From Antedon mediterranea (Eukaryota > Animalia > Echinodermata), in the NCBI RefSeq assembly GCF_964355755.1, contig NC_092673.1, forward strand, positions 30,687,648-30,751,647: 64,000 bases of DNA, read 5' to 3'. Shown here piece by piece: positions 882-37,600 of the stretch. Below the pieces are notes generated by a model, which saw nothing but the letters and a program-made list of their open reading frames with translations, was not told where the DNA came from and ran no database searches. A program made the translations under genes and the position numbers. Position 1 is the first letter of the stretch; every line of letters starts with the position of its first letter.

Positions 882-3800
882 ATGGGGCGAACAATTTATG
901 CCACAGATCAAATAAAAAACATAATAGAATCTAATCGTGAAGATCCTCGTTCACTTAACGTAGGTTTAATTGTAGGCCAAATGGTACGTATAAATAAGCA
1001 TGCGAATTCTATCCAACTTGGTCGTTCCTCCTCTAAACGGAGTCATTTCGGCCGCCAGTTATGAACGACCGGTCATACTAATCTACGCCCGGTAGGTCTG
1101 TGTGTTATAAACTGATTAAGTACGTACATGTATTAACATGCTCTACTAGGCCAAGTGGTAAATTTTATTTAATATATAGTTTTCTTTCCAGAAACCAGTT
1201 AAAGTCAGTTAAAATATTGGGCGCTAGTTCCGTTTCGCACCTGTCATTTATTTCAACTCAAAATTTGTTTAGTAACTTTATCGTAAGTACCACACCTTAG
1301 AATTAGGCCTCAAAAATACTTTTACGAAGAAGATCACACAAAAAGTATTGAACATGGCGTATGCGAAATTCACGAACAGATGTGCGAGAAACACGTCATC
1401 AATTTAAAGGATTTATTTGTTACTTTTTGTGTGATCTCCTTCGTAAAAGTATTTTTGAGGCCTAATTCTAAGGTGTGGTACTCACGATAAAGTTACTAAA
1501 CAAATTTTGAGTCGAAATAAATGACAGGTGCGAAACGGAACTAGCGCCAAATATTGTTATATACTTTGATTTTCATTCGTCACATATTCTAGACTCACAA
1601 TAATGTGTTAAAAAAATCCACATCATTTTCAGTTTCAGAATAAATCTAATCAGTATTTTGACAGTTTTTCACATAAAAAATGTATCAAATGTGCAATATC
1701 ATTTATTTTAACATTAAATATTATGTTAGCATGTACATAAAACCATATACCAGGCGATATTTGGTCCTGTTGTAAGTCCTAGTTGACTATTGTTCTTTAC
1801 CGCACACACAATTTACGCAATAATATTTGTTATCTTGTACTGCTCACTAATTTTATAGGTAGAAAAAAACCATTAATTGCACCTTCTTTTTTATAATATA
1901 GAATGATTTTGGGAAGGATTTTGCCATGATGTTAGTTCCCACACCAAGTCCAGATGGAGGTGATAGTAACACGGAAGTTATTGATGACCAGTGGCTTGCT
2001 CAACATTCTATACAGGTCATACATGAGAACCCCTTTTAACACTACAGGCAAATTTAGGAGTAGCGCTTCTCCTATGCCTGGCCCCAACTCCCCCCGTTAT
2101 GGCTTTGGCTTCCCTATTTCCCCCTTCCCCTACAGTAGCTTCACCTCTGCCTGGCTTCCCCTATGCCCGGCTTCTCCTTCCCCTATGCCTGGCTCCTCCT
2201 TCCACTATGCCTGGCTCCTCCTTCCCCTATGCCTAGCTCCTCCTTCCCCTATGCCTGCCCCCACCCCCTCCTTCCTCGCCTGGCTCCCCTCTCTCTTTGA
2301 CAGCTAAAATGAATTATGAACTACTTTTTGATGTCTATTTTTTAACAGACTATTATTAATATTGTGGGGTGGGATGTCCCCTGTACAGGGATTGGCTGTG
2401 TATTAAGACATATACTCTAATTCCCCTTGAGAATAGGGTCCCCTGAATAGGGATGTTCCAAGAGAAGTATTTTAGTAATGTTCATTAGCATCCATTCACA
2501 TTAATAAAAAAAAGAATATAATTTTTTATGCAATATTCTAAATAATAATTGTTTATTTTATTAGGTGTCACGAATGATGCTAGGTGGAATGAAGGTGATT
2601 GGTGTGTTTGTCATATGTACAACCTCTGAGCTTCTTAAGAAGATACAACCAAAGCTACGTCAGGCTGTGTTTGCTATACACAAACACATGAAGCGAAAGC
2701 AGATAATAGAGTTAGAAGACAGAGTCACTGATAGGATTTTGCTACAGGTCTCGAGTGTAGGCCAAACCAAATCGTATCCTTTATCCAACAAGCAGTTTGT
2801 TACCATATTTGGGTATATCACTACCATATTTGGGCACATCAAACTAGTTTGATAGTGTAGACAGAGCTTTTAATACTGTATCATCAAACATCCAGTATAT
2901 TATACTGTATGATGGTATAGAGCCCTGCATAAAAAATATTTAAACTCCTGGATGTGAAACTGAATCTTATTTTTTTTATTTGGCCTATGCAAGAAGAATC
3001 TACCTATATCATGATGATGGTTTAATACTAACTCTTCCAAATTTTAAAACCAAAGAACTTTTCCAATCTGATTTTGGGCCATCTGAAAATAATGTCAGCA
3101 AATTCACAGTTTTACTACTACTATTAATATACCAGTGGCCATATTCACCAATCACACTTAAGTCCCTTAACTCAATAAATATTTAAGTATTCCCTTAAAT
3201 TGTATTCACTTAGATAGGAGATTTTAATTTAAGTGTAAGTATTTCCCTTAGCCTAAACTTTGAACTTTGAACTTTGAACTTTATTGTATCTCTTTTAAAT
3301 CAGAGGCACAGTCTCAATGAGATGTGCAACAAGTTTACAGTGAAAAATAATACATACACACTTAAATATAAATACAAAACAAGAAATTAGACATAAGAAC
3401 AAAATAACAAAAAAAAAAAAAAAAAAATTTAAGAAAACTGAGACAGATTAAATACTAAGAAAATGAATAAATTAAGTTTGAGAAGGAATTGTATTATATA
3501 TATCATTTCGTGTGTTCCAAGCCATGGTCAGAAAAATTTTACAATGTTTGTCGAAAATAATACTTGCTAATTCGTATACATCATGGGTCAATTGATTTGG
3601 TGTAATTTTAAATTCATTATGGATTTCAAGATCATCGAAGACTTAACCAATGTTTCTAGCATTACTTGTAGAAGCATTGATGTAGCTGATCCAAATAGCA
3701 CATTGAAGCACGCTGACTGGAAGTATCAAAGCTCCATCAGTTGTAATATTGCAACTACTCAGCTTCAGGTGGACTTAACAATACCGCTCACTGTACAAAC

Positions 3801-6006
3801 GGGAAAGTCTGCCTTACGCAGAGACCTTAATGTAAGTAAGGTTGCAGATTCTGATGGGGAATTCAAGATTCAATATTTTTACATAAAATTATTATAATTG
3901 ATATATTTTTCATCCAGAACTTAGAAACACAATAAAACACAAAAACGAATTAGCATTTTTTTTCTGAAAACGTAATTTTCTTTGTTCATGTCATGTCATT
4001 AACAAAACTTAGTGGCAGTGGCGTAACGAATATTAGCACTCACTGGCTAAACCCAGACAAGAGCATGAGCAGGGCACTAATGCAACTACACAGGGTTGAA
4101 GGGCCCCTTAGGAGTTCTAAACCAGGGGCCTTTTCCCCTGCGTTACATCACTGCTTAGTGGAATTTAATATCTAATTGGGTAGCCATATTAACTTGACTA
4201 GTACCTATTTATAGTCCTGATTTAATGGATGAAATTCTCATTAAAGATCTCTAATAAAAATCATTGTCATTATATTAATCATGATTAGACTTACAGTATG
4301 TTTTTATTATTCACCTTTTTTAGAATGGTCTAGTCCCATTTTTAAATTCAGTCAAGCAGGCAATGGCAACAATAGATCAACAAATAAAATCGGGAGAAGA
4401 ATTATTTGAATCGCGTTCATCCAAGGTAATATTATTTTGATCTAATTTAACTTTCATGGTATGAGCAGTTAATAAATCAATCTCAATCAACTCACCAAAT
4501 TTATCCCAATTCTAATTTTGTAACATGAACCGAATTGTGATGAACAGCAAAGGCATTTTATTTATTGTATTTGCATTTCAGCCAAAGTCTGGAAAGAAGG
4601 CAGCTGTTACAATCCCTGCAGTGCACACTCATACACTAGAATTGTTCGCTAAAAAGGTATGTTTTACCATAGTAAAGTATACAGTTTATTTTTAAAAGCA
4701 GAAGTGAGAACATGCTAAAGCACCATTTCCTCTACTTTCTTTCATAGGTGTGTGACAATTATGAAGTTACAAAATCTAATTGTGTAGCCAGTTTACGTTT
4801 ATCGGGGTGTATAGAATGTCGTGCGTACCTCAACAGTAAAGCCACTGTAGATGACGCCATTCAGGTACAGGTTACTTAAAATCTAAATTAATATTATAAA
4901 CAAAGCAAACACAATTTGAAGCACACTTAAGCTCTATCTGCACTATCAAACTTTATGTGACAAAACAATGTGATGTGCCTATATATATAAGTTAAATTTT
5001 TGTAATATTTTTAATTTCACTATTGTAAGGATTACTCAGTGTTATTAATTAGAGAAAATTTGAACTTTGACCCTTGACATATAGGCGTTGAAGGAGGATG
5101 CAATTAGAAGTATGCAGGCACGATGTGATCTTTTAGTTGATGAACTTGCACAGGACCAAGATGATGCTGAGGGTAATTGTAATTTATCATCATGAATATT
5201 TTTAGGTTTTGTATCCAGTGTGAATGGGCTACTACCCAGTGGTCAAGGGAGGCATTTATTTAAAGCGGGGCATTTATTTGATATCCTTAGCTGAATGATA
5301 TTTCAATATTTTTGTTTATTTTTCAGGTTTTAATAGAATTACTATACTACCTACAAGGGTGTTTTCTTCTATGCCTGATGTATCAATTGATGTCTGTGAC
5401 TACATGTTCCCTGATGAATCGGCTATGGACTGTATAGAAAGATTTTCCGAGATTCTTGGGGTAGCAGTAACTGAAGACATGTTAGACATGGAGTCTGAAC
5501 CTCTACCAGGTTAGTACAGTGAGGCTTAGGCTCTTTGTTTAGCACTCCTATGTGGCCCTCAAATGCTGGGTATTGTAGTGGGCTGTTCATGCTGTGTGTT
5601 TAGCCAGTGAGTGCTCATAGCCGTTACGCCACTGGGTTAGTAATTTTGTTTTGAATCCTAATTTAATGGCACTATATAACAATTATAGTTGGGAATTATA
5701 TTAGGTCACGTTTTTTTGTGCAGATACTGACAGTCTAAAGCAAGAAGCTGACCCCAGTGCCAAAGAAGTGCCAACAGAAATGAGTGATAGTACACCTGAG
5801 GCTAGCCCATCTAAAAGAGGACAATATATAGGTAGTCAATTATTTCTTAATAATATGGTTGCACATTTACATTAGCTGGTATAAAACTTTTAAAAAAAAT
5901 ATTGACATTTTCTTATACAATTTATTTTATTGCAGCTGCTGCAGTCAGCATGTCAGGGGCTTTGATTGCAGCATTAATGTCATATCTAACACTATCCAAT
6001 GATTGA
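882..6006 (+). CDS. ODR4: ODR-4 homolog (ER membrane GPCR maturation factor), 11 coding exons
   Basis: Exons 882-983, 1902-2015, 2565-2773, 3660-3831, 4324-4425, 4582-4656, 4748-4864, 5085-5172, 5327-5509, 5724-5831, 5936-6006, all GT-AG and in frame. Motifs MGRTIY..GLIVGQ, DDQWLAQHSIQVSRMMLGG, ITCRSIDVADP..ADWKYQ, LPTRVF..CDYMFPDE, and a C-terminal hydrophobic anchor. Confidence 0.9.
1220..1548. mobile_element. Fold-back MITE with about 128-bp TIRs and 8-bp TSD (Merlin-like)
   Basis: GGCGCTAGTTCCG...CGGAACTAGCGCC near-perfect inverted arms. AAATATTG lies on both sides (1212-1219, 1549-1556). The superfamily is inferred from the GG terminus plus 8-bp TSD. Confidence 0.85.
2067..2292. repeat. 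Degenerate pyrimidine-rich minisatellite (CCCTATGCCTGGCTCCTCCTTC-like)
   Basis: Repeated ccctatgcctggc motifs in ODR4 intron 2; accounts for ORF 1954..2307. Confidence 0.75.
2774..3659 (+). other. U12-type (minor spliceosome) GT-AG intron in ODR4
   Basis: 5' splice site GTATCCTTT, branch-like GACTTAACC at 3640-3648 about 11 nt before the AG, and no polypyrimidine tract. Confidence 0.85.
3255..3490 (-). mobile_element. Probable 3' end of a CR1/L2-type LINE with (AAAGTTC)n tail
   Basis: The minus strand ends ...AGAGATACAATAAAGTTCAAAGTTCAAAGTTCAAAG after a T-rich 3' UTR-like tract. Confidence 0.4.
4016..4153 (+). mobile_element. hAT-like MITE
   Basis: TIRs CAGTGGCGTAACG / CGTTACATCACTG with perfect 8-bp TSD CTTAGTGG. 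Related copies at 5517-5634 (reverse) and about 8238-8420. Confidence 0.85.
5517..5634 (-). mobile_element. hAT-like MITE, same family as 4016-4153
   Basis: Ends CAGTG...CGTTACGCCACTG with 8-bp TSD GGTTAGTA (5509-5516, 5635-5642). Confidence 0.8.
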
Positions 6007-7202
6007 ATATGAAATGCAATGGATCTGTCAGAGAGTGTCACAGGACAGGATACCATAAATGTGGCTTCCAGTGGTTAATGATATACATAACACATGTAGA
6101 ATACGCCTCAGTGGTTACAAGATATTCACACAAGAGATGCAACATGTGTTGGAGGATGCCATCTCAACAGATTTGATCATTCTTGCAGAGATAACTAAAG
6201 AATTCTATATATTGCTGATGTGCCTATACTGTATGTACACGATGATGTGTCATATCACTACCATATTTAGGAACGTCAAACGAGTTTGATAGTCTAGACA
6301 AGGCTTTAGAGTTCCCCTATTTGCTATTATATGTACACCAAGATGTATATAGAAAAATGCAGAAAAGCATTTATCTTTGTATGCCTCTCTAACTCACTAC
6401 ACAGTATGATATTGCTTATTGCATTTATTTTTCCTTTGTAACTCCTGTACCGTTTGGCAATTTACTCGATATAAATTTGTACTGTGCATTTATTATCACA
6501 AAATAAATAACACTTATTTTTCTATAAAAATATCTTTATTATCAAGCGTTTTAGTGGAAGAGTTTTAAATACAATATGTATATGAAGGATTAAAGATTAA
6601 TATATTGAATATAATATCTATAAATAATAAAATGAAAACTAAATAAACACACAGACTTCTATTGTTATAAATGTATTAAGTACAGGATATGATCAATGCC
6701 ACAAATTGACTCAAGTAGACTGGAAGAAAATAATTATGTTTGTACCTTCAATTCCTGAAAATAGAAATATGTATCTTAACATTTGGATGCCCCTTGATTG
6801 TCATGGATCATGTCAACGTGCTGCGTTTTTCAAAGACATTTTACTGGCAAGCAAACGTGTATTTTATAACTACAATACTGCAAAGTAGCGTTGCGTTCGG
6901 GAGCGAAGCAATTGGTCAGGTTTGTGCAAGACATTTGACCAATTATGGATGGTCTTTTATGGATTCCATTTCCACTTTGAACCTACATAAAAATTCTGTT
7001 TTTGTCATACCAACTATATAGGAAACATGCCTGGTCTTAATTGTATAACTACTGCATGTTATTGGTTGGCAATACATCTGACTAATAATGCATGTCTTTT
7101 CATAATTGTGCTCAACTACTCTTTTTTCTTTACAGAATTATACTTAAGCAGGTTTCCTACTCATCTGTTCCATATAAAGTAATATTATTATTCTACATAC
7201 GT

Positions 7203-7416
7203 AAGGCCTACATATAGACCCTGAAACATATTATTTTAAAGATGGTGTTCTTCTGACGCACGTATTAACCACTGTGTTAAGATCAGTGAAACTCGCATGT
7301 TTTATACACAGTATTACTATCTTCTAAAGCCTACATATAGACCCCGAGACATATTATTTTAAAGAGGGTGTTCCTCTGATGCACGTATTAACCACTACTG
7401 TGTTAAGATATGTGAA
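7203..7416. repeat. Two-copy direct repeat (period about 123 bp) downstream of the MLLE gene stop
   Basis: GCCTACATATAGACCC..CATATTATTTTAAAG..GCACGTATTAACCACT..GTGTTAAGAT occurs at about 7203-7290 and 7326-7416. Confidence 0.75.
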
Positions 7417-7546
7417 TTCACTCTATTCATTGTCATTATGTCCTGTGCAAATGCATCAGACCACTATCCTTCGTTCCATCAGAAGAAATTTGACACATTT
7501 CAGGTTTAAAGTAGCTAAAAACATCCTCAAACACAGCATTACTCTG

Positions 7547-9314
7547 TCAACTTGAAGTGTTCAAGAGAGCCTTGTACGCCATGTCTACCTTCTCCTTAAG
7601 AAGCTGCGGACAGGTTAGCAAAACCTTTAAACTTTCGACATTCATTTCCAACAGCATTCCTGTAAAACATAAATAATGAAACTACACAAGCAAGAAATAA
7701 AAGAGAAAGAAATTTCACTCATGCATGCTTGTTCATCTTACTAGTTTTTCATTTGACCAAAAACTGGATCAGAAAAAAAAAAATATTTACCTGAAAAAAT
7801 GTAATTTAAACAAAAAAATACTGTCAGACAATGAGTTTTTGGTTAAAATTAATTGTTTAAATCCTATTAAAAGTCTGATTTTATTAATCTTAATTAATTT
7901 TCGTGTTTTTGGGGGACAATACATCTTTAAGAAAAAAAAGATCATAACAAACCTGTTATCTTGGCAGCTAAATCTGGATATATTTCAACTACTTTATCAA
8001 ACAACTCCTCCCCAATCTCATCCTTTCCTCTATCTGTCACCTGTGATCTGTTTTCATTATTGTCTAGACACGCCTTGGCTTTACTTATGGCAACGTCAAG
8101 GTCTTTATTGGACAACAGCAATTTTTCAATCACATCACAATCCAATTCTAGCAGCATACCTGAAAATGAGCAATTTATATAATAATAAAAGTTTACAGAC
8201 GGGTACCTGGTAGGCTAAAAAACAACTATGTTGATTCAGTGGCTTAACGACTGTGAGTGCTCACTGACTAAACCCAGGGGCCCCCAAAGCTTATGGGGGA
8301 CCTGTGCAGTGCCCAGGGGAAAAAAAAGGAAAAATAATATGTCAACAATGGCTAAAAACACCCAAGGCCTCCAGCGTTGGAGGGCCACTTAGGGTTCCTA
8401 AACCAGGAGCTTCAGTCAGGGATGTGCTGATTGCTAGTTATTATTAAAGCCATTAAAATTATTTATGTTTGTTTTGCTTTACCACGGACGAAATATAAGG
8501 AGGGTTATTTAATTATCAATGTTGTTCTAAACAATAGAAAAACTGTGTATCCGGAACTACCCTTTAAGTTTAATGTATATAGTGTATATATATAAATCCA
8601 AAGGCAAATTACTGAAAAAATGACAATGCTGTGGGTATCAGTGGCTGGATCTCAATGGAGATACAAAAATAAAAGCGAAAAGCTAAATCAAAACGAGAAG
8701 TAAAACAGCCAGAAAAGTTAGAAGAGCTTTTGGGCAACACTAGCCCTTCATCAGTGCAACAGTATATAACAGTTTACCAGTAATTTTTGCACAATTATCT
8801 TGTTCTTGGTCTTCTACCCGTTGATAGAGTTTCTCTGCGAGTTCCTCATTATCAAAACTTTTATAATCAGAACGTCTACAGATAAATAAAAAAGAATTGA
8901 TTTATTTTTTTACAACCAACAGTGAAACATCATTTAAAAAAAAAATAAAAACGTATCAATATTTTATAAAAAATAGAGTAGAATGCCTCATTTGGGACAC
9001 CTTTATTCTGTGGACACTTCTCCATTAACTCAGGAAACACCTAGGCCTAGTAGGGTAAAGGTGCTGGTGCATTTTTGGCATCTTTAATATAGATAGGGGT
9101 TCTACCTTTTCAAAGCACCCTGTGCTGCCTTTACTTGAACCTGGAGCAATTTCTTGTCCTGTAGAATTCTTAGTACCTCATTGTTACCCATCTCCAGCAA
9201 CATCCCCGTCACCTGCGCTGCCTCATCTGCTGTAATATTTAGGCTAACAACTAGCGAATACAGGTGGTCACCAAGGACGTCCTTACGCTCTGGAATTGCA
9301 CCACACTTCTGCAT
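7547..9314 (-). CDS. Stand-alone triple MLLE (PABC) domain protein, 208 aa
   Basis: Exons 9314-9106, 8875-8778, 8159-7953, 7659-7547 (627 nt, GT-AG, open frame). Three units: KDVLGDHLY..QVTGMLLE, NEELAEKLY..KITGMLLE, KDEIGEELF..KITGMLLE. An in-frame TGA lies 3 codons upstream of the ATG. Confidence 0.88.
7745..7930. mobile_element. Partial TTAA-ended (Kolobok-like) non-autonomous element
   Basis: Ends GGGGGACAATACATCT-TTAA. The internal sequence recurs at about 30390-30500 and 53085-53250. Confidence 0.5.
8716..8760 (-). ncRNA. Minimal type-I hammerhead ribozyme relic (Penelope-like element/retrozyme)
   Basis: Minus strand GTTGCA-CTGATGA-A-GGGC-TAGTGTT-GCCC-AAAA-GCTC. The core is intact except that GAAA reads AAAA. 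Confidence 0.6.
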
Positions 9315-9894
9315 TCTTATTCAACTTAGTATTTAGCTGTAGAGAGTGTAGTAGTTTGATTAGTAGAGTTGAGGCTGACAATTAATTATTTTCGTTTACA
9401 TTTTTATCTTCTTTATTCTTTAAATTCTCCTAACTAAACTAAAAGCAAAATAAAAAAAAAAATCTCTTTCTATTTTTAATATAAAATAACTTTTTATACT
9501 ACATGGTATAATTATTATTTTCAAATAAAATAAAATGTAAGCCGCATCTTTTTATATTCATCTAGGCCTGGCTAACTATGGGTTCAGACCCAAAACAGCC
9601 TGACCCCCGAAAGACTAAAAAGTCCCGCAATCTCGACTCTGTCTGGCCGGCTCTGGGTGGGTGTGGTGGGCTAGCCTACTACTCTAGTAGCTAGACTAGG
9701 CCTAGGCCTAGCCTAGCCTAGTGCTAGCCTCTACTTTTTTATACAAGAAATCAAAATCCCGAAATTAATAAATAACACGGATACACTTCAAAAAATCAAT
9801 AAACAACTTCTACAATTAAGTGACTAAATCGGTCACAGTAAAATCCTTTTATTTATGGTGTTTTGTATAAAAGGTCAAGAACGAATCTATGAAC

Positions 9895-10200
9895 ATGGAG
9901 GTGGCCATTTTGAAGACTCATCACTTCTCGAGTTCTCGTATAAATCTGAATGAGCAAAAGGTTTGACACATAAATACTTAGTATTCTGAAATATTTGAAA
10001 TAAGTACAGGGTTGCCTTTAATAATAAAACAAATCAAAAAAAATCTTTTTTACACAACTAGTATAATTTTCTAATATTGTAAAACACTTAATTTAACGCA
10101 AAATGTATATAAGAACTACTTTTGTTGTGGATTAATTCATGTTCATGTAGCGCCCTCAATAGACCGAATGTCTTTTTCTCGTGTAATTTGGCGAAAGTAG
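9895..10200. promoter_or_regulatory. Putative bidirectional promoter for the MLLE gene (-) and RPL28 (+); RPL28 non-coding exon 1 starts with a pyrimidine tract
   Basis: TCTTTTTCTC at 10171-10180 is followed by donor G|GTAACG at 10201. A YY1-like AAAATGGC lies on the minus strand at about 9904-9911. TSS positions are inferred. Confidence 0.6.
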
Positions 10201-10774
10201 GTAACGTGTGGTAGATTTCCAATTAAAACGTTAAAATTAAGGAAAAAATAAAGATATATAAACACATTAGTATATATAAAAAGGCTTCAGGATATCTGAG
10301 CATTCTTAAATTATAACTTAAATATCATAATATAGATTCTATTGCCATAAACACATAACTAAATGCCAGGCTAGCCGATCATAAAAAAGTTCATTATTCA
10401 CTGCCGACCAGTCGCCACACAAACCGTGACAGTTTAGTGTCTGCCTATCTGCTAGCCTGGCTACTTTTTTTTCGGATGTGTATAGCCTAGCAAATGTTAT
10501 GTCATTGTCACTGTGTTGATTGATACAAGGATAAGAGTTCAAAAGCATTAATGAGGCCTAGCTAGAACTACTAACTAAAAATGTAAATTTGTTACGGTTA
10601 TTATTAATTTTTTATAAAATATTAAAGAATAATACAGGGGTACAGGTACAGTAGAGACTCTACTAGACTATTTTAAGTTCTTCCTACAATATTATGATTG
10701 TTTGAATAAAGTTTACAAGAAACATCTGCAATTATTTTCATTTATTGTATTTTTTCTATTAGCAACCATTAAAC

Positions 10775-11860
10775 ATGTCTGGGGACCTGCAATGGATGAT
10801 TGTCCGTAACAATTCTGGAAGTCTTCTAAAAGGACTCAATGGCACCACATTCAGCACAGAGCCAAACAACTTGTTGAACCGAAACTCAAAGAAGTACAAT
10901 GGTTTCGTCAACAGGAAGACAGTTGGCATTGAGGCTGCTAAAGATGGAAAGGGCGTTGTACTGGTTACAAAGAAGCTTAGAGGTGCTCCATTTTATTCTG
11001 TAGTGTTTAATTGGCCTAGCTTGTATGTTTTTGGATCTCTTGGTTACATACCAGTATACCAGATTGACTCCAAAACCAATGGATGTATTGGGCAGTGTAT
11101 CCGCAGCCAAAATTATTGGTTAATTTTTTTACGATTTATCCGATAATTATCCGATTTGAATGAGATAATTATCGGTTAATTTTTCTCGCGTGGAATTGGT
11201 TAAACCCCCTTTCCACAGACAGTTTATCGGTTAATTTTTGGCCTATGATACAAACAATTGGAAATTTTTATATTAATAAAAAATATATAGTTAAAAATTG
11301 CATCACATTTTTAAGATATTAATTGCTGTAATAAATGACAATGAAGTTCACTTATGCAAATGGACACATGTTTGCAACAAACATGTCTTCTATGTCACAT
11401 CACTATATACGTATTCTTTATTTATGTATATTTTGTTTGTTTTATTGCCTCTTCAGTACGCAACAAGCCTTCAAAGTGGTACCGAGAAGTTACATTAAAG
11501 AAGGATTCTCGTCGCGCCCTCACAAGTATCAGGCATGAAATTAAAAAGCATGGTTACAGACGAGACCTTAAAATGGTACGTTCATAAAATAATGACTCAA
11601 TTACCAGGTTCCAAAAGTATTAAAACCATTATTGTGTTGATCCTAATTCTAATTAACTAACACTGTCATAAGATTTTGTATGTTTTTTTGTTTTCCGTAC
11701 ATTGAGAAATTAATAATTTTTCTGTATTATATATTTTAAAACCTCATTTCTCATTTACTATTAACAGGCTGCCCTGAGACGAGCAAGTGCTATTCTCCGC
11801 AGTCAACGACCAGTAAGCACCGGCCGAAAGGCAAAGACGCCCCGTGGAGCCAGAAAGTAA
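10775..11860 (+). CDS. RPL28: 60S ribosomal protein L28 (eL28), 139 aa
   Basis: Exons 10775-10982, 11457-11575, 11768-11860. [49 protein letters not shown]. Confidence 0.96.
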
Positions 11861-13686
11861 AATGTCATATAAATAACAAGATTTGATAAATGGAGTAAAA
11901 CCATGAGTGGAAAAAAATAAAAAGAAAAACTTTTAATTGATTTGTGTTGTTTATTGTTTTCTATCAAAGGGGTAACATTTGCATAAAATATTATCAGAAT
12001 TGAGAAGAGAAATATGAAAAGGTGTAAGATTTCAGATTTGGGTGGTTGGAACTATTTGTGAGCGAATATAAGCTGTTTTCAATGATGAACTTTTAAAATT
12101 TGGCATCACCTTTTTTTTCAATTCAAATTGTCTATATCTTTGTTCACACACACACTGTACTACTGTGGTTGAGTGTGCATAAAATGGGTTTAAGCTACTT
12201 GCACACTTATTCCGTTGCATGAAATGAAAGACTGTGCTATTTTGTTACATAATAAATATAACATTTTAGAGAATTTAATCTATCATCTCTTATCGAAGCT
12301 GATAGTTGCATTGGACATACTGTAGTAATAAGCCATTACAATTTAATTTTAACTTCTATCTCTGTAAATTATACCACACATGTTTAAACGCACAATGGGT
12401 TAAGCCAATTAACTACAACTTTGATAAAATGTGTAGTTTCAAAAATTGGTTTTACCGTACCTACCCTCTTCGATGAACCGTAATTTGTAAATGTCGCCCT
12501 CTTTATTGATTGAACTTTTTGACGATGCTGTTTTTTTCTGCTGACGATTGGATTACACATGATTGAGGAGAAAAACAAAACAATCGACGTGTACTGTGTG
12601 CTGCCCAGTGAAAAGAGACAAAAAGTACGTAAATATTAGGCCTGATGTTAGACTGAATAAGTGCAATAATGACGGCCAAATTGATGTTTTAACATGTGCT
12701 AATTATTGCAAAGATTGTAGTTAACGAGTGAATAACAGGTTAGTAATTATTTGCTTTATTTTTTCGTTTTTTTTTATGTCAGCTAGGCTAGGCCTAGGCT
12801 AGTAGGGCCTAGCTAGGCCTAATGAGTGGTGGTGTTCTAGGCTACCCTCGTGCTGGAAAGATAGGAGACTGGACTATCTTAATAGAAAGTATGCAGTCTG
12901 GTAATGAGTTGTGATGTATCACATGCAATCATTGAATCACAAGGGCATTGCTATTTCCTATGTTTTCAGAATTTGTAAAACTTTTTGTCAACATTTTATT
13001 TCATTTGAATAAATAAACATCTAGTCTACTGTATGTATGATAAAACAGTGTATTTACTAATACTACCCTTAATTAGCCTTCTAATTATATAATTTAATTA
13101 AAAGATTGGACGTATGCCCAGGCCCACAACATACAGTAGGCTCCTACTTAGTTAAAAAATATGAGACAAAATTTTATGAGGGGGACGTGAAAATTTGTTT
13201 TTATTTGGACTAATCTTAAGTAATAAATGTAGAAAAGTTCAATCGTATAATATTTCGTTTTAAATAGAAAATATCATTTAGACAAAAATCATTGATTGTG
13301 AATAGTTGTTTTGAAAGTTTCATCTACCTGTCACAAAGGATTACAGTACCTCAGCCTGGGGAATGACTCACACACCAGGTTGTTTGTTCGAGGTCAGAGG
13401 TAGTTTTTTTACAACTCAATGTGCGATAAACAACGACCAGACTACATGTCATGCTCCTAACCGTTCATTTTGCACATGCATGGATATTGGAATGTGTTTT
13501 GCCCCGTACCTTGATTTACCCAGGTTTTATGGTTTCTAGGTCCAAGCGGCAACCAATGACACATCGATTGACCTGACCTAGGTCGGTCGTCGCAAATGTA
13601 ATGCTCCCACATCTATGAAACCATGATGATACATTGATATTTATATTTTTTTTTTGCAGAGTGTTATTTGAGGTAAATTTGGAGCC

Positions 13687-16600: not shown

Positions 16601-19600
16601 TGGGTAAATGATTTTTGAGATTTATCACATTTTTTCGTCAAAGTAAAAACTATCATTTGACATTAAAATGGTATACTGTATATTTCAAACAAATTATTTT
16701 TTTTCAGAGGGAAAATATCTTTTATTTATTGATGATGTAATCCCACCGAACCATACTTTTTGCTAAATTTCTCAGTTTTTTTAATGCTAAATACATTTCT
16801 CATTTAATCTTTCTATATTATGTTGAATTAAACCATAAAGGAATCATTATCTTCATGTTAAGCGTTAAGTATACATAATATTTTAAAATTGTTTAATATG
16901 TAAACATTCAAATTATTTGATAAACAAAGTTGATAAGTCGTTGTTTACTCCTCAAACAATCTGCTTTCTTAGTAAATAAACCAACTGAACCATTAAAATG
17001 TTTGACCATTATGTTAAAATATTGCATGTTGCTTGTTTTAATAAAAAGTGTCCTTTTTTTATAGGGGTGTCCATTAAAGTTTTTGACCATAAGGTTAAAA
17101 TATTGCATGTTGCTTGTTTTAATAAAAGTGTCCCTTTTTTATAGGGGTGTCCATTAAAGTTTTTGACCATAAGGTTAAAATATTTCATGTTGCTTGTTTA
17201 AAAAAAAAAGTGTCCCTTTTTTATAGGGGTGTCCATTAAAGTGTTTGACCATAAGGTTAAAATATTGCATGTTGCTTGTTTTAAAAAAAAGTGTCCCTTT
17301 TTTATAGGGGTGTCCATTAAAGTGTTTGACCATAATGTTAAAATATTGCATGTTGCTTGTTTTAAAAGAAAGTGTCCCTTTTTTATAGGGGTGTCCATTA
17401 AAGTGTTTGACCATAAGGTTAAAATATTGCATGTTGCTTGTTTTAAAAAAAAGTGTCCCTTTTTTATAGGGGTGTCCATTAAAGTGTTTGACCATAATGT
17501 TAAAATATTGCATGTTGCTTGTTTTAAAAGAAAGTGTCCCTTTTTTATAGGGGTGTCCATTAAAGTGTTTGACCATAAGGTTAAAATATTGCATGTTGCT
17601 TTTTCAAGAGAAAGTGTCCCTTTTATAGGGATGTCCCCCAAAGTGTTGACCATAAGGTTCAAATATTGCATGTTGCTTTTTCAAGAGAAAGTGTCGCTTT
17701 TATAGGGATGTCCCCCAAAGTGTTGACCATAAGGTTAAAATATTGCCTGTTGCTTGTTTCACCATAAAATGTCTGCTTAATACTGTAGTGGGGCGTCCCC
17801 TGAATAGGAGTTGGCCGTAGGGTAAAGCATTGTGTGTGTATAAACTCTATATTTTCAGAATTCGAATAAGGATTGAACTACAGTATACAGTAGTTACCAT
17901 GTAGAAACATACTTAATGTAATGGTCATCATAGTGTAGGTCTGAAGCATGTCAATAAAATACAATTTAATATAATACACAATTCAATAAAATTTACAATA
18001 AAATACGAAATTACAATACAATAAAATATAATACAATTACCATAATAATGTATAATACAATGGCAATAATAAATATCAATATAAAAGGTATACTATATAA
18101 CTTTTCTGTAATATGGTAAATGCTTATGATAGCTACAGTAGCTGATTAATAGTGATACTGTACTTTGTTTTCTTTTCTACTCTACATCACTCTCAATATG
18201 AGTGAGACGTTCTTCTCCATGTAGAGTTACTCAAATCTAGCACTAGTCCAGTTGTTGATTAGAAGTACAAACAAACAAAAACATATAAATAAACACTATT
18301 AATTATCATGAATTTTATTGTCGGTTTTGAAATAATTGTTGTCAGGTAGCCATTTAATAGCAAATGTTAATACCATTAATTATTGTATACGCATTTTGTG
18401 CTTTTTAACATGTGTTTTACTATATTTTTGGACTGTTATTTTATGGAAGTCAGAGTTGAAGGGTTAACGCCATTTCTGGTGATAGTGGGTTTTCCGCGTT
18501 TGATTGACCCTCCTCAGCAGTCCACTTCTTTTGTGTTGTCTGCTTGTTCTTGTTTTCTGAAAGGAATACATAGAAAAAAAAATAAATGGAAATAAAATAA
18601 AAGGTTTGAATCCATCTGAAAACAATTTTTATGTAAAAAAACAGAATAATTAAAATATAATAAAAGCAAAATTGTATTATGTGATATCATCTTTCTCAGA
18701 CAACAGAATAGCAAAAATAAAACATCATATACCTGGTGAAAACAACAATGGAACGTAATGATTATGTAACAGTTACCATAGTGCTTGACATCTCAACAAC
18801 AATGCCTTTGATTAATAATTGCCTATTGTTACCAATGCTCTGTTTACATAGCTTAATCAGTTAACTATTAATTATTACCATGCAGCATTATTGAACAATC
18901 AATTATTGAGAAGAAGCCCTTTAGGGTAATGCAGTCAATTCTCCCAAAACCAGACCCTCTAAAAACCTGAAGCTCTCCCAATACCAATTATTCCCAAATT
19001 AATTTTTACCATTAGAAACAAATTCCGAATACAAGACTTTCCAGAAAACCAGAAATATTTGACCAGCACAGGTGTTCGGTATTGAGAAAAGTTGACTGTA
19101 TATTCTTCATAAAAGGACACACTAATTTTCTACAAAAAAAACTTTTTTAATATTTGATAATTGATTTATAAAAGTTACATCATCTGTACGGTATTCACAA
19201 TGTTGGATAATTCTGACTTCTCAACTACTGTATCCTTTAAAATCGCAGGAATTTGTTACAATTGTCTGCCTTTTGTTGAATGTTGTGATTTAACTTGTTT
19301 AACTGATCAAACAAAAATTTGTTTAAAATGAAATCCTAAATTAAGAAATGTATGTTTATATTGCTATAATCCAAAACTGTAAGCTAACTGTAAGCTAAAC
19401 TGTAAGCTAAACTGTAAGCTAACTGTAAGCTAACTGTAAGCTAACTGTAAGCTAAACTGTAAGCTAACTGTAAGCTAACTGTAAGCTAACTGTAAGCTAA
19501 ACTGTAAGCTAAACTGTAAGCTAAACTGTAAGCTAACTGTAAGCTAAACTGTAAGCTAAACTGTAAGCTAACTGTAAGCTAAACTGTAAGCTAAACTGTA

Positions 19601-22600
19601 AGCTAAACTGTAAGCTAACTGTAAGCTAACTGTAAGCTAAACTGTAAGCTAAACTGTAAGCTAAACTGTAAGCTAAACTGTAAGCTAAACTGTAAGCTAA
19701 ACTGTAAGCTAAACTGTAAGCTAAACTGTAAGCTAAACTGTAAGCTAACTGTAAGCTAAACTGTAAGCTAAACTGTAAGCTAAACTGTAAGCTAAACTGT
19801 AAGCTAAACTGTAAGCTAAACTGTAAGCTAAACTGTAAGCTAAACTGTAAGCTAAACTGTAAGCTAAACTGTAAGCTAACTGTACGCTAACTGTAAGCTA
19901 AACTGTAAGCTAAACTGTAAGCTAAACTGTAAGCTAAACTGTAAGCTAAACTGTAAGCTAAACTGTAAGCTAAACTGTAAGCTAAACTGTAAGCTAAACT
20001 GTAAGCTAACTGTAAGCTAACTGTAAGCTAAACTGTAAGCTAAACTGTAAGCTAACTGTAAGCTAAACTGTAAGCTAAACTGTAAGCTAAACTGTAAGCT
20101 AAACTGTAAGCTAAACTGTAAGCTAAACTGTAAGCTAAACTGTAAGCTAAACTGTAAGCTAAACTGTAAGCTAAACTGTAAGCTAAACTGTAAGCTAACT
20201 GTAAGCTAAACTGTAAGCTAAACTGTAAGCTAAACTGTAAGCTCCATGCTGTAGACGGAGTGTGAATTGAAAGACCTGAACTGGACTAAATTGTTAAATG
20301 GAGTCATAAATCAATAACCAAAACATTCATTGTTTTTCTGTTTCGCATCATGAGTATTGTGCAATAAAAAATTGCGAAATGATTTAGACTTTATACATTA
20401 TGTGTTTTTAACAATTATCATACCATCATAAATTTGAACTTTTTATGTAATTACTTTGTAACTGGAGTTTCCTGCCAAGAGTAAATTGATCATAAAATGT
20501 GTAGTTTCCTTCCTGTTAAGATAAATTTAAAGTACTGTAGAGTTTGGTATAAAGTATGTTTTCTTATTGCCTGTTCAGACCAGAGTTTTCTTTCATTGTT
20601 TGTATGCAACATACATAGGTCTCTGAACCAGAAATGTTTTAAAACTCTTGTTCACACCATGGAGGTAACCAACATGCCTTAACAATGCAATTCAAACATA
20701 CAAGCATACAGTTTGAGTGAAAACCATGGTAAAACTAAAGCTTGATTCCCACTAGGACGCAACGCAAGAACTAAGCGCAACTCAAGTGAAGAAAATTTGT
20801 CCATAAATTTCCGGATAACATCTCTTTGTTAAACTCCAGGTTGGCACTTCTGTTTCATTTGACCAAAATGCAATCTTCTCATTGCCGACAGAAGTCTGTG
20901 ACTTGCAGACACCAGTTCTCTACCACTGGCAGCCAGAAGTCTACCTATCATTGGCTGCCAGTTGATAAATTATTAACTGTTTCTAATGTACCGTATAATA
21001 GTATTGTACATAGGAATATTTTATTTGGTTATATTAATCAAACAGCAGTGGGTTACTGAACTTTACAGATTTCATAAACAGTTGAAACTGTATTTTTTAT
21101 TTGAATTATTTATATTATTTATTTTTTTCCCATAAATTTCTCATTTTCACAGCATTTCTTTCTTTTTTTTCGAAGTGCTTATAAGTAAAAACTCGCTTAT
21201 TATACCTTATACCATTATACCAAACCAGTTCTTCTTAATGAAAACTGACTTCACAAAATCATTGTTTTTTAAAGAACAAAGATGATTTGTTTTGATAAAT
21301 TTGTTAGAAAGAACTTAGCTATTGAACAAATATTAGAGTTTTCAATTAACCCTATAGTTTTGACAACTTTTTTTCAAATTAGGATTTATCACCACTAAAT
21401 AACCTCTGCTAAAATCTGTATTTCAATGTTATTTTGAATGTAAATATTTTAGACCACTTTAATCGCAATATTCAAAGCACTTCACATTATTAACTCACTC
21501 ATTGGATCAAACACGTATGGACACTCCCATAATGTTGCAGTCAATAAGCGCAATTGTGTTTAAACAATACCACCAGGTACCCAATTGTACACTTACCAGC
21601 TTATTATATGAACACACAAGTATGCTGTGTCGCATGATGATCATGCCATCATTGTCATTGGTCTGTGATGTGTGTCATAACATATTGATTATCAATTACG
21701 TAAACCAAGTCTATAATTTACATATTTTAAATCATATTTGTAGTTAATAAATTGAAATATGTTCTATACTCCCCTGTCATAATAATTATTTAGTTGCACA
21801 GGGCGGATTAACAGAGATAAGCTTGAGTAATTAGTTTAACTCTGAACTGAATACATTCGCCTTTGGTATCTCTAATGTAAATCAGGGCTGCTCTTATTTT
21901 ACAAATTGTTATGCCTGAAAATGTAATTCAATTATGTTTTTAATTCAATAAAATTGAATTCTAAAGTAAAGTGAATGAATGAATACATTTGATTGTCAAG
22001 AAATGGGTTAAAATCTCATTTCTTACGTTGCTGAAATTGAGAATTCAAAATTTAATACAATTTTACATCATATGTTGATAATCGGCATTCCAGCATTGTT
22101 AAATTGTGACTCTATGGACTGCGAGTGTGTGTGAAGTATGGCAATCAACTATCCATGGACTTCAATTAATTTTGTCTATCCTTCCTGTACATACTTTTCA
22201 AGTATAAATTCTCATAAGCTTTAGGCTGCAATACACATCTCATAGCACCTACAGTACACACACAGACCAATAAAAAGGGTCTTGTGTTCGTGAAGACAAT
22301 AAAACAACCTTTCGTTTTGGGACAGTAGACAGAGAATGAACATTGAATCAACAAATGGTTTAGTGGTTATGATGTCCAAGCTACCAATCCAATGGTCCTG
22401 GGTTCAAGTCCTGTCATGTCAGGAATTTTTCTAATGACAAATTACAACCCCACTCACAAATAATTGTAAGAAGACTTTGTTTATATATAGAGAATCTTGT
22501 GTATGTTTGTCTTGTGATCAGGATTGCCACCTTTAAGAAAGATAGTGAATGAATTCGCCTAATGGTTATACTTGGTAATTTGCCTAAATATTAAAAGAAA

Positions 22601-34600: not shown

Positions 34601-37600
34601 GGTTGAATGTTTCAAAAGACATCAAAATTCAGCTCCAAGATAACAGAACAGAGAGGGCGGTTGAGTGGATGGCAGTTGTAAGTATTTGATAGCTAAAAAA
34701 ATAATTAAAAAAAATTGAACAAATGATAATTTATTATGTAAAAATGTAATATGATTTGATTTTGTTATTTTAAATCCTTTTTCTCATTTAGATGCAAAAA
34801 GAGCTTTACGAACATCCGCTGTTTTTTCCAAATGTCAGCCTGGACATATTTCCTCGTAATTACATAAACAACTCCACTTACAATGCAACAGCGGTGTTAC
34901 TCAATGAGTTGAACACTATCGATAATGCTGCATGTGCCTGGCTTGAGATTGCATCATATTTCAACATGGACATCTTTAAGCCATTTCCAACTGAGGAGGA
35001 CCTTGTTAATTACGTTCTACACGAGGCCACTGCTGATAATGTCACAGTGCTAGCAAGTAAGTTTTGTACTGTAATGAATTCGTATTTATATTGCACTTTT
35101 TACAATAATCATTTCAAAGCGAAGTACAACGATTTTCATCTCCTTTTCATTTCATGTTGCCAACAAACTGCCCCCAAGGCCAGGGACTAAGATGTACCAG
35201 TTCACTGGGTTAGCCCCTTACTTTTCTAAAAGAAGGGCTATGTTCTTTGTGCATTTGAGCAAGATATGTCTTAAAGCTCTGTCTACATTATCAAACTTGT
35301 TACTGAATCGGATTTGTTCTATAAAATAATTTAATTATTAATTTTTTTTCTCCCCAAATAAGATGTTATTTTCCATGTGGATGAAAATGGTAATCTACCA
35401 CCACACACAATCTACAAGATCCGACAGAATTCATCGTTCACAGATCGTACAGATTTGATTCGCCGACGCTATTGGACACCTGGCTCCAACCACCATAACA
35501 TTCTCGGCTACTACACGTATGGGTTTGTGTGGATTCAGGATCTTATTGAGAGGGCGATCATCGACACGAAAGTTACAAGAAAGATTACAGAGCCTGGGAA
35601 CTATGTTCAAGAATTCCCATATCCTTGTTATAGACATGATAAGTGAGGATGCTATTTAAAAACATCACATTGCTTGTGTGGTGTTGTTTCAGTCTAAGCT
35701 AATAATGAAATAATGAGAATATTAGCCAAATATATATATTTATATATATAATATCTATAAATAATAAAGAGAATATAATAGCCAACTTGCATAAGATGTA
35801 CCAGTACACTGGGTTAACCCCTTACCTTTCCAAGAGATGGGCTGTATTTTTTAATGTGCATTTGAGCCAGATATGTAAATATATATTCACTCCAATTTTT
35901 AATCAAATGATAATTACTAATTTTTATTTCTGCCATCAACCTGATATAATGTGAAGAACGCTATTTTTTTCTAATAAAACTTTTTGTTTTGTTTTTTCCC
36001 CAGATTTTTATTTACAATTGAGCACATTATGCCGATGGTAATGATGATATCATGGATATATTACGTGGCCATGTTGACACAAAGTATAGTTTATGAGAAA
36101 GAAAAAGGACTGAAAGAGGTAATGATAATTCTAATAAACTATTATAAAAACTCTTGCAACTGGAATCTTTCTCTATTAATATATAGAAGAACCCCTCCTT
36201 TGGGACACGCATATTGAAGGGACAACCCTATTCAGAGAACAACCCTATTCACACGACAACTTCATTCAGATGACAACCCTATTCAGAGAACAACCCTATT
36301 CACACAACAACTTCATTCAGATGACAACCCTATTCAAAGAACAACCCTATTCACACGACAACTTCATTCAGATGACAACCCTATTCAGAGAACAACCCTA
36401 TTCACACGACAACTTCATTCAGATGACAACCCTATTCAGAGAACAACCCTATTCACACGACAACTTTATTCAGATGACAACCCTATTCAGAGGACATCCC
36501 TATTCAGAGGACACTTCCCCATAAAAAAAATGAGGGGAAATACTATATGTTTTAACACTACAGCCAACCTCTACTCAGAAGATACCCCCATTAAGGGGAC
36601 ATTTTGTTGGGTCCCAAAAGGTGTCCCCCTAATAGACACTCTACTGTATTGTCTTCAGAAATCATGTGCAAATGTAGTGGAGTTGTAGCTTGGTGGTTTG
36701 CCTTCCAATCCCAAGGTCCGGGGTTCAATCCAGACCTAGTGCCATCCAGGGTTGTAAACTCACAACTCTTTCAACTCTACTCCCTAAGCCTCAAATAAGA
36801 CTTTGTTTATAAGCAAAATAAATTATAAGAGTTTATCCATCCTGTAATTGGCAAATTACCCACTGTTGGATGCGTATGAAATAACAGAATAGAAAGTAAC
36901 AAACATTGTTTTCATTTTTATATTATCAGGTCATGAAGCTTATGGGTTTGAGCAATGCAGTACATTGGGTAGCTTGGTTCATCACCAGTTTCTTTGAGAT
37001 GTCAATCACTATTGTGGGCGTGGTCTGCATCCTCAAATATGGAGAGGTGTTAGTCTACAGCAATCCAGTCATTGTGTGGCTTGTTTTGATTACATTTTCT
37101 GTAGCCACAATTAGCTTTTGGTATGCATTATGTGCCTTTTTGAAAGTATGAAATATTGCATTAAAATAATTGAATTCGCTAGAATCCCTCAGGAGACACC
37201 TCTATTAACCAGACATATTCCCACGAAGCAAGGAGCAATATGGTTCAACACTACACTGGTCTACAGCTAACTTCAATTCAGACAAAACCCCTATTAAAGG
37301 GACATTTTGTTTCAATTCTGAGTGTGTCCCCTTAATAAGGATTCTACTATATTCAATTAATTTATAAGTTCAATTAATATAGTACTTTACTATTACTGTA
37401 TGTTTTGCGAACGCTCCATTCTCTATCTAAATAGACTGTCCGCATGGTATTGTTGAGGGAGCTGTTACTAAAAGAATGTTACTTATTAATTAAACATAAA
37501 CTATATACTTCAATTGTAATCTGACTTCAGCCCTCAAAGAATTCAGAATAGCCTTTCTAAAGAGAAGTCGATAGAAATCTTTAGGGAGTATGGAGACAGT

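What the first reader, a model, noticed from the sequence alone, without database searches (positions are those of the whole stretch)
7547..9314. Stand-alone triple-MLLE protein: candidate multivalent PAM2 scaffold or PABP decoy
Seen: a spliced, intact 208-aa ORF made of three MLLE domains, each keeping the (K/Q)(I/V)TGMLLE signature. It has no RRM or HECT domain, an in-frame stop just upstream of the ATG, and under 900 bp to the RPL28 start, so there is no room for extra domains. Known: MLLE domains are characterised in PABPC (with RRMs), UBR5 (with HECT) and fungal Rrm4 (RRMs plus multiple MLLE). They bind PAM2 motifs of eRF3, PAIP1/2, PAN3, TOB, GW182, ataxin-2 and LARP1/4. Inference: an RNA-free trivalent MLLE protein could cross-link or sequester PAM2 proteins and so tune deadenylation, termination, miRNA silencing or granule assembly. 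I know of no characterised animal protein with this architecture.
Basis: partly seen in the sequence, partly recalled or inferred. Interest (0 to 1): 0.88.

Follow-up and report, generated by a model that had tools for sequence, protein, structure and literature searches.

The report
Overlooked animal MLLE-only protein family

Summary
Four exons on the minus strand (9314-7547) give a 208-aa protein of three MLLE domains and nothing else. It is identical to an uncharacterised Antedon mediterranea record, and an RNA-like contig carries the exon 3/4 junction.

It is not a crinoid oddity. MLLE-only relatives occur in echinoderms, hemichordates, amphioxus, lamprey, sharks, coelacanth, ray-finned fishes (Danio, Takifugu), molluscs, a brachiopod, a nemertean, bugs, corals and an anemone. 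Their domains group by position (A, B, C) across protostomes and deuterostomes and apart from PABP/UBR5-type domains, so the array is old. No tetrapod is among the 120 listed of 372 hits.

Antedon domain 3 keeps the PAM2 pocket residues scored; domains 1 and 2 are retuned. Complete cnidarian members begin with a myristoylation-like MGxxxS.

The papers read name only PABPC, UBR5 and Rrm4 as MLLE proteins; nine searches found none on this family. Best reading: an RNA-free multivalent adaptor or competitor for PAM2-type motifs (0.5). The scan had not noted this family, only an unrelated single viral MLLE.

The parts
9106..9314 (-). Coding exon 1 (209 nt): ATG and most of MLLE domain 1 (type A)
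   Evidence: (MLLE E 2.4e-16)
8778..8875 (-). Coding exon 2 (98 nt): first half of MLLE domain 2 (type B), ending within the Gly codon of KITG
7953..8159 (-). Coding exon 3 (207 nt): second half of domain 2 and first half of domain 3, ending within the Gly codon of KITG
7547..7659 (-). Coding exon 4 (113 nt): second half of MLLE domain 3 (type C, most PABP-like pocket) and TGA
   Evidence: spliced junction 7658/7952
8876..9105 (-). Intron 1, 230 nt, GT-AG, in the linker after domain 1
8160..8777 (-). Intron 2, 618 nt, GT-AG, holds high-copy repeats
7660..7952 (-). Intron 3, 293 nt, GT-AG, skipped in an X1 contig
9315..9803 (-). 5' leader of at least 490 nt, continuous with exon 1; in-frame stop two codons before the ATG; four upstream ATGs, one opening a 20-codon uORF at 9561
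6429..7546 (-). Probable 3' UTR; contiguous with the spliced contig down to 6948; AATAAA at 6540, 6494 and 6429 (end inferred)
10775..11860 (+). Neighbour, head to head: RPL28 (context, not part of the gene; end approximate)
2565..6004 (+). Neighbour, tail to tail: ODR4-like gene exons (context; ends approximate)

Best explanation
The gene encodes a 208-aa protein of three MLLE domains with no RNA-binding or catalytic domain, a member of an old animal family, and it likely works as a multivalent adaptor that holds several PAM2-type motif proteins at once and so competes with poly(A)-binding protein for them. Shown: gene structure, three MLLE domains only, family range, and position-specific domain types A-B-C kept across bilaterians. 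Predicted: three four-helix MLLE folds on short linkers. Inferred: domain 3 is a canonical PAM2 site; domains 1 and 2 read PAM2 variants with other affinities, as the MLLE domains of Rrm4 do. Inferred: lacking RRMs, the protein cannot sit on poly(A) itself, so it would draw clients (eRF3, PAIP2, TOB, PAN3, ataxin-2, GW182 types) off the tail or bridge different clients. Avidity would favour clients with several motifs or oligomeric ones.
For: Only MLLE-type families pass Pfam cut-offs in 19 of 19 family proteins scanned. 57 of 70 representative hits scanned are MLLE-only. The range runs from corals to coelacanth and teleosts. Profiles trained on deuterostome domains assign 22 of 25 protostome domains to the right position, and 36 of 44 the other way round. 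An AU test rejects a crinoid-specific triplication, p 0.013. PABP/UBR5-type domains lie on one side of a branch, support 91/83. The AlphaFold2 model has mean pLDDT 91.9 and matches solved MLLE domains at 0.5-0.9 A in the top rows, with Z 12.0 to the UBR5 MLLE. T582, G583, L585/586 and E587 are nearly invariant in all domain classes. 25 of 29 family proteins have at least one domain with both the F567/K580/L585 triad and the Phe pocket (contact residues from PMC2854688; triad from PMC11347130). K606A does not weaken PAM2 binding in PABPC1, so the type-B Ala there need not disable the site (bioRxiv 2026.01.10.698208). Rrm4 is a precedent for a three-MLLE platform with unequal domains.
Against: There are no binding data. 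Rrm4 MLLE3 closely resembles Pab1 MLLE yet does not bind PAM2, so sequence likeness does not fix the ligand. In Antedon only 1 of 3 domains meets all criteria, and only 15 of 29 family proteins have such a domain (the Leu-pocket criterion is my own and probably too strict). Gln560 is mostly Asp/Glu, and K580 is kept in only 11 of 25 type-B domains against 26 of 26 PABP/UBR5-like ones. Teleosts and Amia lack domain C, gnathostomes carry an extra N-terminal domain, bugs have a decayed domain A, and cnidarians have 4-6, so no fixed trio is required; this fits simple avidity as well as division of labour. PAM2 proteins are far scarcer than PABPC1 in human cells, so competition needs high level or avidity, and neither was measured. 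The trees rest on 64 columns, and classes B and C are not single clades.
Confidence: 0.5

Rival explanations
1. Pure decoy: the domains are interchangeable sinks that titrate PAM2 proteins away from PABPC, with no bridging role.
For: There is no effector domain. Domain number varies from 2-3 to 6 and whole domains are lost. PAM2 proteins are limiting relative to PABPC1. Giant-virus contigs carry single MLLE domains without RRMs.
Against: Position-specific signatures are kept across the protostome-deuterostome split, for example Ala606 in 24 of 25 and Lys/Arg609 in 24 of 25 type-B domains. A plain sink would not need this. It would also have to outcompete abundant PABPC.
Confidence: 0.2
2. Membrane tether: the family began as a lipid-anchored MLLE array that ties PAM2-bearing mRNPs to membranes, an animal analogue of the fungal endosomal Rrm4/Upa1 link.
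For: Complete members of Acropora, Montipora, Pocillopora and Porites begin MG-x-x-x-S just before domain 1, Actinia begins MGNFVG, and several unnamed members have the same kind of start. The N-myristoylation consensus is recalled, not from a call. There is a fungal precedent for MLLE/PAM2 links to endosomes.
Against: The Antedon protein begins MQKC. Bilaterian members passing the pattern were not seen. No predictor of myristoylation was run. Cnidarian domains do not sort into A-B-C (mostly C-like), so their orthology to the bilaterian gene is less certain.
Confidence: 0.12
3. Other ligands: the domains bind non-PAM2 motifs, for instance the PAM2-like motif in the UBR5 HECT domain or MKRN1, or unrelated proteins, and act outside poly(A) control.
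For: The closest structural representative is the four-helix UBR5 MLLE. MLLE domains differ sharply in specificity. Q560 is mostly acidic and K580 is often replaced.
Against: The Phe pocket is kept in 16 of 22 A, 20 of 25 B and 17 of 22 C domains. UBR5 MLLE also binds classical PAM2 motifs.
Confidence: 0.15
4. Annotation artefact: a fragment of a longer PABP or UBR5 gene, or a decaying duplicate.
For: Databases name some relatives 'hyd-like' or 'polyadenylate-binding protein'. Junctions 1 and 2 were not displayed directly. dN/dS was not computed.
Against: In-frame stop before the ATG; continuous leader; no Pfam hit in 57 upstream frames; 72% identity over all 208 aa to Anneissia and the same architecture in many phyla.
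Confidence: 0.02

Closest known systems
Fungal Rrm4 (Ustilago maydis), three-MLLE binding platform
   Same: Three tandem MLLE domains with unequal pockets, one main and two altered.
   Different: Rrm4 has three RRMs and a seven-helix MLLE3 that binds PAM2L. This protein has no RRM, has four predicted helices per domain, and is animal. No common origin of the arrays is shown.
[quoted passage not shown]
   Same: Fold (rmsd 0.5-0.9 A in the top rows), KITGMLLE motif, and the Phe pocket and FKL triad in domain 3.
   Different: PABPC1 has four RRMs and one five-helix MLLE. Here there are no RRMs and three domains; Gln560 is acidic, His617 is lost, and the domains fall outside the PABP/UBR5 group in the tree.
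UBR5/EDD/hyd MLLE domain
   Same: Four-helix MLLE without the first short helix; best representative match, Z 12.0, rmsd 1.1 A over 61 residues.
   Different: No HECT, UBA or UBR domain. Database names such as 'E3 ubiquitin-protein ligase hyd-like' for the fish relatives come from the shared domain only.
Giant-virus single-MLLE proteins (undescribed; L017-L022)
   Same: MLLE without RRMs.
   Different: One MLLE fused to other domains; viral; no sign of belonging to this family.

Membership tests
MLLE domain (Pfam PF00658) | Profile match above the curated cut-off | tested here: met
   Three stretches, 152 bits against a cut-off of 27
MLLE domain (Pfam PF00658) | Four- or five-helix MLLE fold | tested here: met
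   Predicted model, pLDDT 91.9, four helices per domain; matches to solved MLLE domains
PAM2-binding MLLE | Pocket residues G563, E564, F567, K580, T582, L585, L586 | tested here: inconclusive
   All kept in domain 3; domain 1 has Q at 580; domain 2 has A at 563
PAM2-binding MLLE | Measured binding of a PAM2 peptide | not testable with these tools
PABPC | N-terminal RRMs | tested here: not met
PABPC | MLLE groups with PABP MLLE domains | tested here: not met
   16 PABP/UBR5-like domains form one side of a branch without family domains, support 91/83, 64 columns
UBR5/hyd | HECT, UBA and UBR-box domains | tested here: not met
Rrm4-type | Three tandem MLLE domains | tested here: met
Rrm4-type | N-terminal RRMs | tested here: not met
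Rrm4-type | Seven-helix MLLE3 | tested here: not met
   The model has four helices per domain, and the linker leaves no room for two more
Bilaterian MLLE-only family (undescribed; defined here) | Two to four MLLE domains only, in A-B-C order, with Ala606 and Lys/Arg609 in type B | tested here: met
Bilaterian MLLE-only family (undescribed; defined here) | Orthology by conserved synteny | not testable with these tools

The most novel reading that the evidence does not exclude
A fourth class of MLLE protein, present in the cnidarian-bilaterian ancestor and apparently missing from tetrapods, forms an RNA-free switchboard for the PAM2 network. Each domain reads a different motif variant, so the protein sorts and cross-links deadenylation, termination and silencing factors away from poly(A) tails. 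In cnidarians a myristoyl anchor ties this network to membranes, as the Rrm4/Upa1 system does in fungi.
Probability: 0.25. Interest if true: 0.85.

Novelty: new variant of a known kind. Interest (0 to 1): 0.66.

Why it matters
The papers read here state that MLLE domains are described only in PABPC, UBR5 and fungal Rrm4 (PMC9249222; 'the two MLLE-containing proteins' of humans, PMC12852828). How many PAM2 proteins share one site on PABPC is an open question. A conserved RNA-free MLLE array in sea urchins, fishes, molluscs and corals would add a regulator that acts on that competition directly. It has gone unnoticed because it is labelled uncharacterised or mislabelled hyd/PABP. Members exist in Danio, Takifugu, Strongylocentrotus and Aplysia, so it can be tested at once. 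Its three diverged domains are also a natural panel for the MLLE binding code.

Tried and rejected
Whole genome: none is held, so there is no synteny, no comparison with Antedon's own PABPC or UBR5, and no copy number.

RNA: no listed holder is on record as RNA. X1 behaves like RNA because its contigs skip introns. Contig depth cannot rank expression and was not used. The stricter second laying did not lay the exon 1 contig and showed no new junction.

Complex prediction with a PAM2-like peptide from L016 was not available, so there is no verdict either way. The peptide would have been a stand-in from an unknown host and a textbook pair. No PAM2 motif was found in the window's six frames. The one match among proteins fetched by then (P0296) was judged doubtful and not used.

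dN/dS was not computed, because no orthologous coding DNA was obtainable. X1 shows three exon-1 differences among the rows displayed, one silent and two replacements; that is too few, and 63 rows were not shown.

Tetrapods and lungfish: none among the 120 listed of 372 hits. 252 were not listed and only the 7986 best candidates were scored, so loss is a hint, not a result. One unnamed vertebrate-like protein (P0298) could not be placed. Flies and nematodes were not seen among named hits and were not tested.

Literature: searches listed no paper on this family. Six locus ids gave 0 papers. One search was uninformative because its terms let MLLE be absent. PMC4566254 is not held. Subscription journals and supplements were not searched; expression tables there may hold these genes.

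Other blanks: the bacterial promoter scan is not applicable; Rfam found nothing in 5500-12500; the Atlas structure search gave nothing above its bar. My first reading, that Ala606 disables type-B domains, was dropped. Foldseek E-values on the whole three-domain model were weak (best 0.05) although probabilities were 1.0.

Full report
1. The gene. On the minus strand one set of GT-AG boundaries gives an open frame: exons 9314-9106, 8875-8778, 8159-7953 and 7659-7547, 208 aa. The product is identical to an NCBI/UniRef record, 'uncharacterized protein [Antedon mediterranea]', a feather star. Pfam finds three MLLE stretches, E 3.3e-45, covering 93% of the protein by my own profile. An in-frame stop lies two codons before the ATG. 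Run X1, whose contigs skip introns, joins exon 3 to exon 4. Another contig runs unbroken from 9803 to the end of exon 1 and leaves 201 letters, the length of exon 2 plus 103 bases of exon 3; the next contig starts two bases further on. Junction 3 is thus seen and junctions 1 and 2 are inferred. 57 of 61 upstream minus-strand frames were scanned and none matches Pfam. The neighbours are an ODR4-like gene (tail to tail) and RPL28 (head to head).

2. It belongs to a wide family. A search with the protein returned 81 hits. The named close ones are Anneissia (72%), Amphiura, two sea urchins, Glandiceps, four sharks, Desmophyllum, Actinia, Lottia, Aplysia, Biomphalaria, Arion, Lygus and Apolygus. 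Cluster look-ups added Montipora, Pocillopora, Porites and Acropora; Acanthaster, Branchiostoma, Saccoglossus, Narcine and cyprinids; and Amia, Petromyzon, Lingula, Lineus, Laodelphax and Argonauta. A profile of 12 chordate members gave 372 hits. The 120 listed include Callorhinchus, Latimeria, Polypterus, Huso, Lepisosteus, Danio aesculapii and Takifugu, and no tetrapod or lungfish; 252 were not listed. Nearly all are 'uncharacterized' or 'PABC domain-containing'; some are mislabelled hyd-like or poly(A)-binding protein. 19 of 19 family proteins scanned pass cut-offs only for MLLE or the related PABC_AtC3H46. Of 70 of the 150 listed representative hits, 57 are MLLE-only. The other 13 carry RRM, PHAX, F-box, kinase and similar domains and look like separate fusions or merged gene models.

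3. The array is old and its domains are distinct. In a tree of 104 domains (64 columns; Porites, Acropora and several multi-MLLE outgroup rows left out), 16 PABP/UBR5-like domains form one side of a branch (91/83). Type-A domains need 2 changes, type B 2 and type C 7, against about 20-23 for shuffled labels (quick tree). Support is modest and deep forks are open. Profiles built from deuterostomes place 22 of 25 protostome domains in the right position, and the reverse gives 36 of 44, with 8 going to the PABP profile. An AU test rejects holding the six crinoid domains together (p 0.013), so this is not a recent triplication. A concatenated tree recovers crinoids, hemichordates, gastropods and gnathostomes, with the deeper order unresolved. 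Gnathostomes carry an extra N-terminal domain, teleosts and Amia lack C, and bugs have a decayed A. Cnidarian members have 4-6 domains, mostly C-like, so their orthology is probable but less sure. Database isoforms hint that the intron inside KITG is shared: the Lottia model has an insertion there, a Heptranchias isoform skips from one ITG to the next, and shark isoforms start at MLLE. This is inference from protein models; coral central domains lie in one unbroken frame.

4. Structure. AlphaFold2 on a 40-sequence alignment gives mean pLDDT 91.9 and pTM 0.52: three four-helix domains, the last helix of domain 2 continuing into domain 3. The bowfin member has looser linkers (pTM 0.30), so the domains are probably beads on a string rather than one rigid fold. 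Foldseek ranks PABP and UBR5 MLLE domains first, rmsd 0.5-0.9 A in the top rows. VIA-align gives UBR5 MLLE Z 12.0, Leishmania PABP1 11.8 and Rrm4 MLLE2 10.8, well above the unrelated rows at 7.0 or less.

5. Pockets. Contact residues were taken from passages of PMC2854688 and the binding-dead F567A/K580A/L585A triple from passages of PMC11347130. Numbering was mapped through a PABP-like protein fetched here. Antedon domain 3 keeps all scored residues. Domain 1 keeps the Phe pocket but has Gln for K580; the X1 contig has Lys there. Domain 2 keeps the triad but has Ala for G563, the position altered in Rrm4's accessory domains. Across the family the Phe pocket is kept in 16 of 22 A, 20 of 25 B and 17 of 22 C domains, against 26 of 26 PABP/UBR5-like ones. 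Type B has Ala606 in 24 of 25 and Lys/Arg609 in 24 of 25, and Gln560 is mostly Asp/Glu in A, B and C. A preprint (10.64898/2026.01.10.698208; abstract and passages) reports that K606A leaves PAM2 binding unchanged and K606Q doubles affinity for eRF3a. These changes are therefore more likely to tune than to abolish binding; Antedon domain 1 has Gln at 606.

6. Mechanism. Shown: an RNA-free array of MLLE domains, conserved with position-specific surfaces. Inferred: it binds PAM2-type motifs, with domain 3 canonical and domains 1 and 2 retuned. Without RRMs it would draw clients off PABPC or bridge them (0.5). A plain decoy (0.2) fits the variable domain number but not the conserved differences. 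Other ligands (0.15) remain possible, since Rrm4 MLLE3 rejects PAM2 despite its likeness to Pab1 (PMC12852828 passages; PMC11572963 passages). Complete coral members begin MG-x-x-x-S and Actinia MGNFVG right before domain 1, which resembles the N-myristoylation signal (recalled). This suggests a membrane tether in cnidarians (0.12), but Antedon lacks it.

7. Known and new. PMC9249222 (passages) states that besides PABPC1 only UBR5 and Rrm4-type proteins are described with MLLE domains. Exact-phrase searches for multiple or tandem MLLE domains and for MLLE-containing proteins listed Rrm4 papers and a few that mention the PABC domain in other contexts (listings only). Six locus ids gave no paper. 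PMC12787238 (passages) added nothing. The protein fails membership of PABPC, UBR5 and Rrm4 but works most like the Rrm4 platform without its RRMs. The scan's index holds no look-alike and one note on an unrelated viral single MLLE.

8. Verdict. A real, ordinary-looking gene that turns out to represent an undescribed, ancient animal family built from a well-known domain in a central pathway. New variant of a known kind; interest 0.66.

Noticed in passing
Cnidarian proteins P0027, P0092, P0122, P0148, P0163; unnamed P0198, P0203, P0243, P0277, P0300, P0307: They start MG-x-x-x-S/A/G directly before the first MLLE domain, like an N-myristoylation signal; bilaterian members do not.
   Followed up: partly
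L017-L022 (viral contigs, three of them named GVMAG): Single MLLE domains without RRMs fused to various other domains.
   Followed up: partly
L001-L016 (metagenome contigs): An exact PAM2-type decapeptide occurs in 16 loci; several frames look viral by eye (not tested), hinting at PAM2 mimicry; L007 has two overlapping motifs.
   Followed up: no
P0200, P0260, P0266: Unnamed proteins with a PHAX RNA-binding domain followed by three or four MLLE domains, another RNA-binding multi-MLLE architecture.
   Followed up: no
P0209, P0224, P0250, P0284, P0257: Multi-MLLE fusions with MIF4G plus RRM, F-box, kinase, Cid1 poly(A) polymerase-associated or Bmt2 domains; some may be merged gene models.
   Followed up: no
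window 9215: The X1 contig has Lys instead of Gln at codon 34, the K580-equivalent of domain 1; Anneissia has Gln.
   Followed up: partly
window 9315-9803: A long AT-rich leader with four upstream ATGs, including a 20-codon uORF at 9561, suggests translational control.
   Followed up: no
window 9803-10201: The leader end and the inferred RPL28 start lie under 400 bp apart on opposite strands, a possible shared promoter region (and sequence).
   Followed up: no
window about 30000-54800, + strand: A multi-exon ABCA-type transporter gene.
   Followed up: no
window 59604-61019, + strand: Frames with weak death-effector-domain matches.
   Followed up: no
window about 7800-7930, 8270-8420, 8560-8760: High-copy repeats inside introns 2 and 3.
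   Followed up: no
window about 17200-17700, 19600-19900, 36180-36700: Tandem repeats that give long spurious frames.
   Followed up: no
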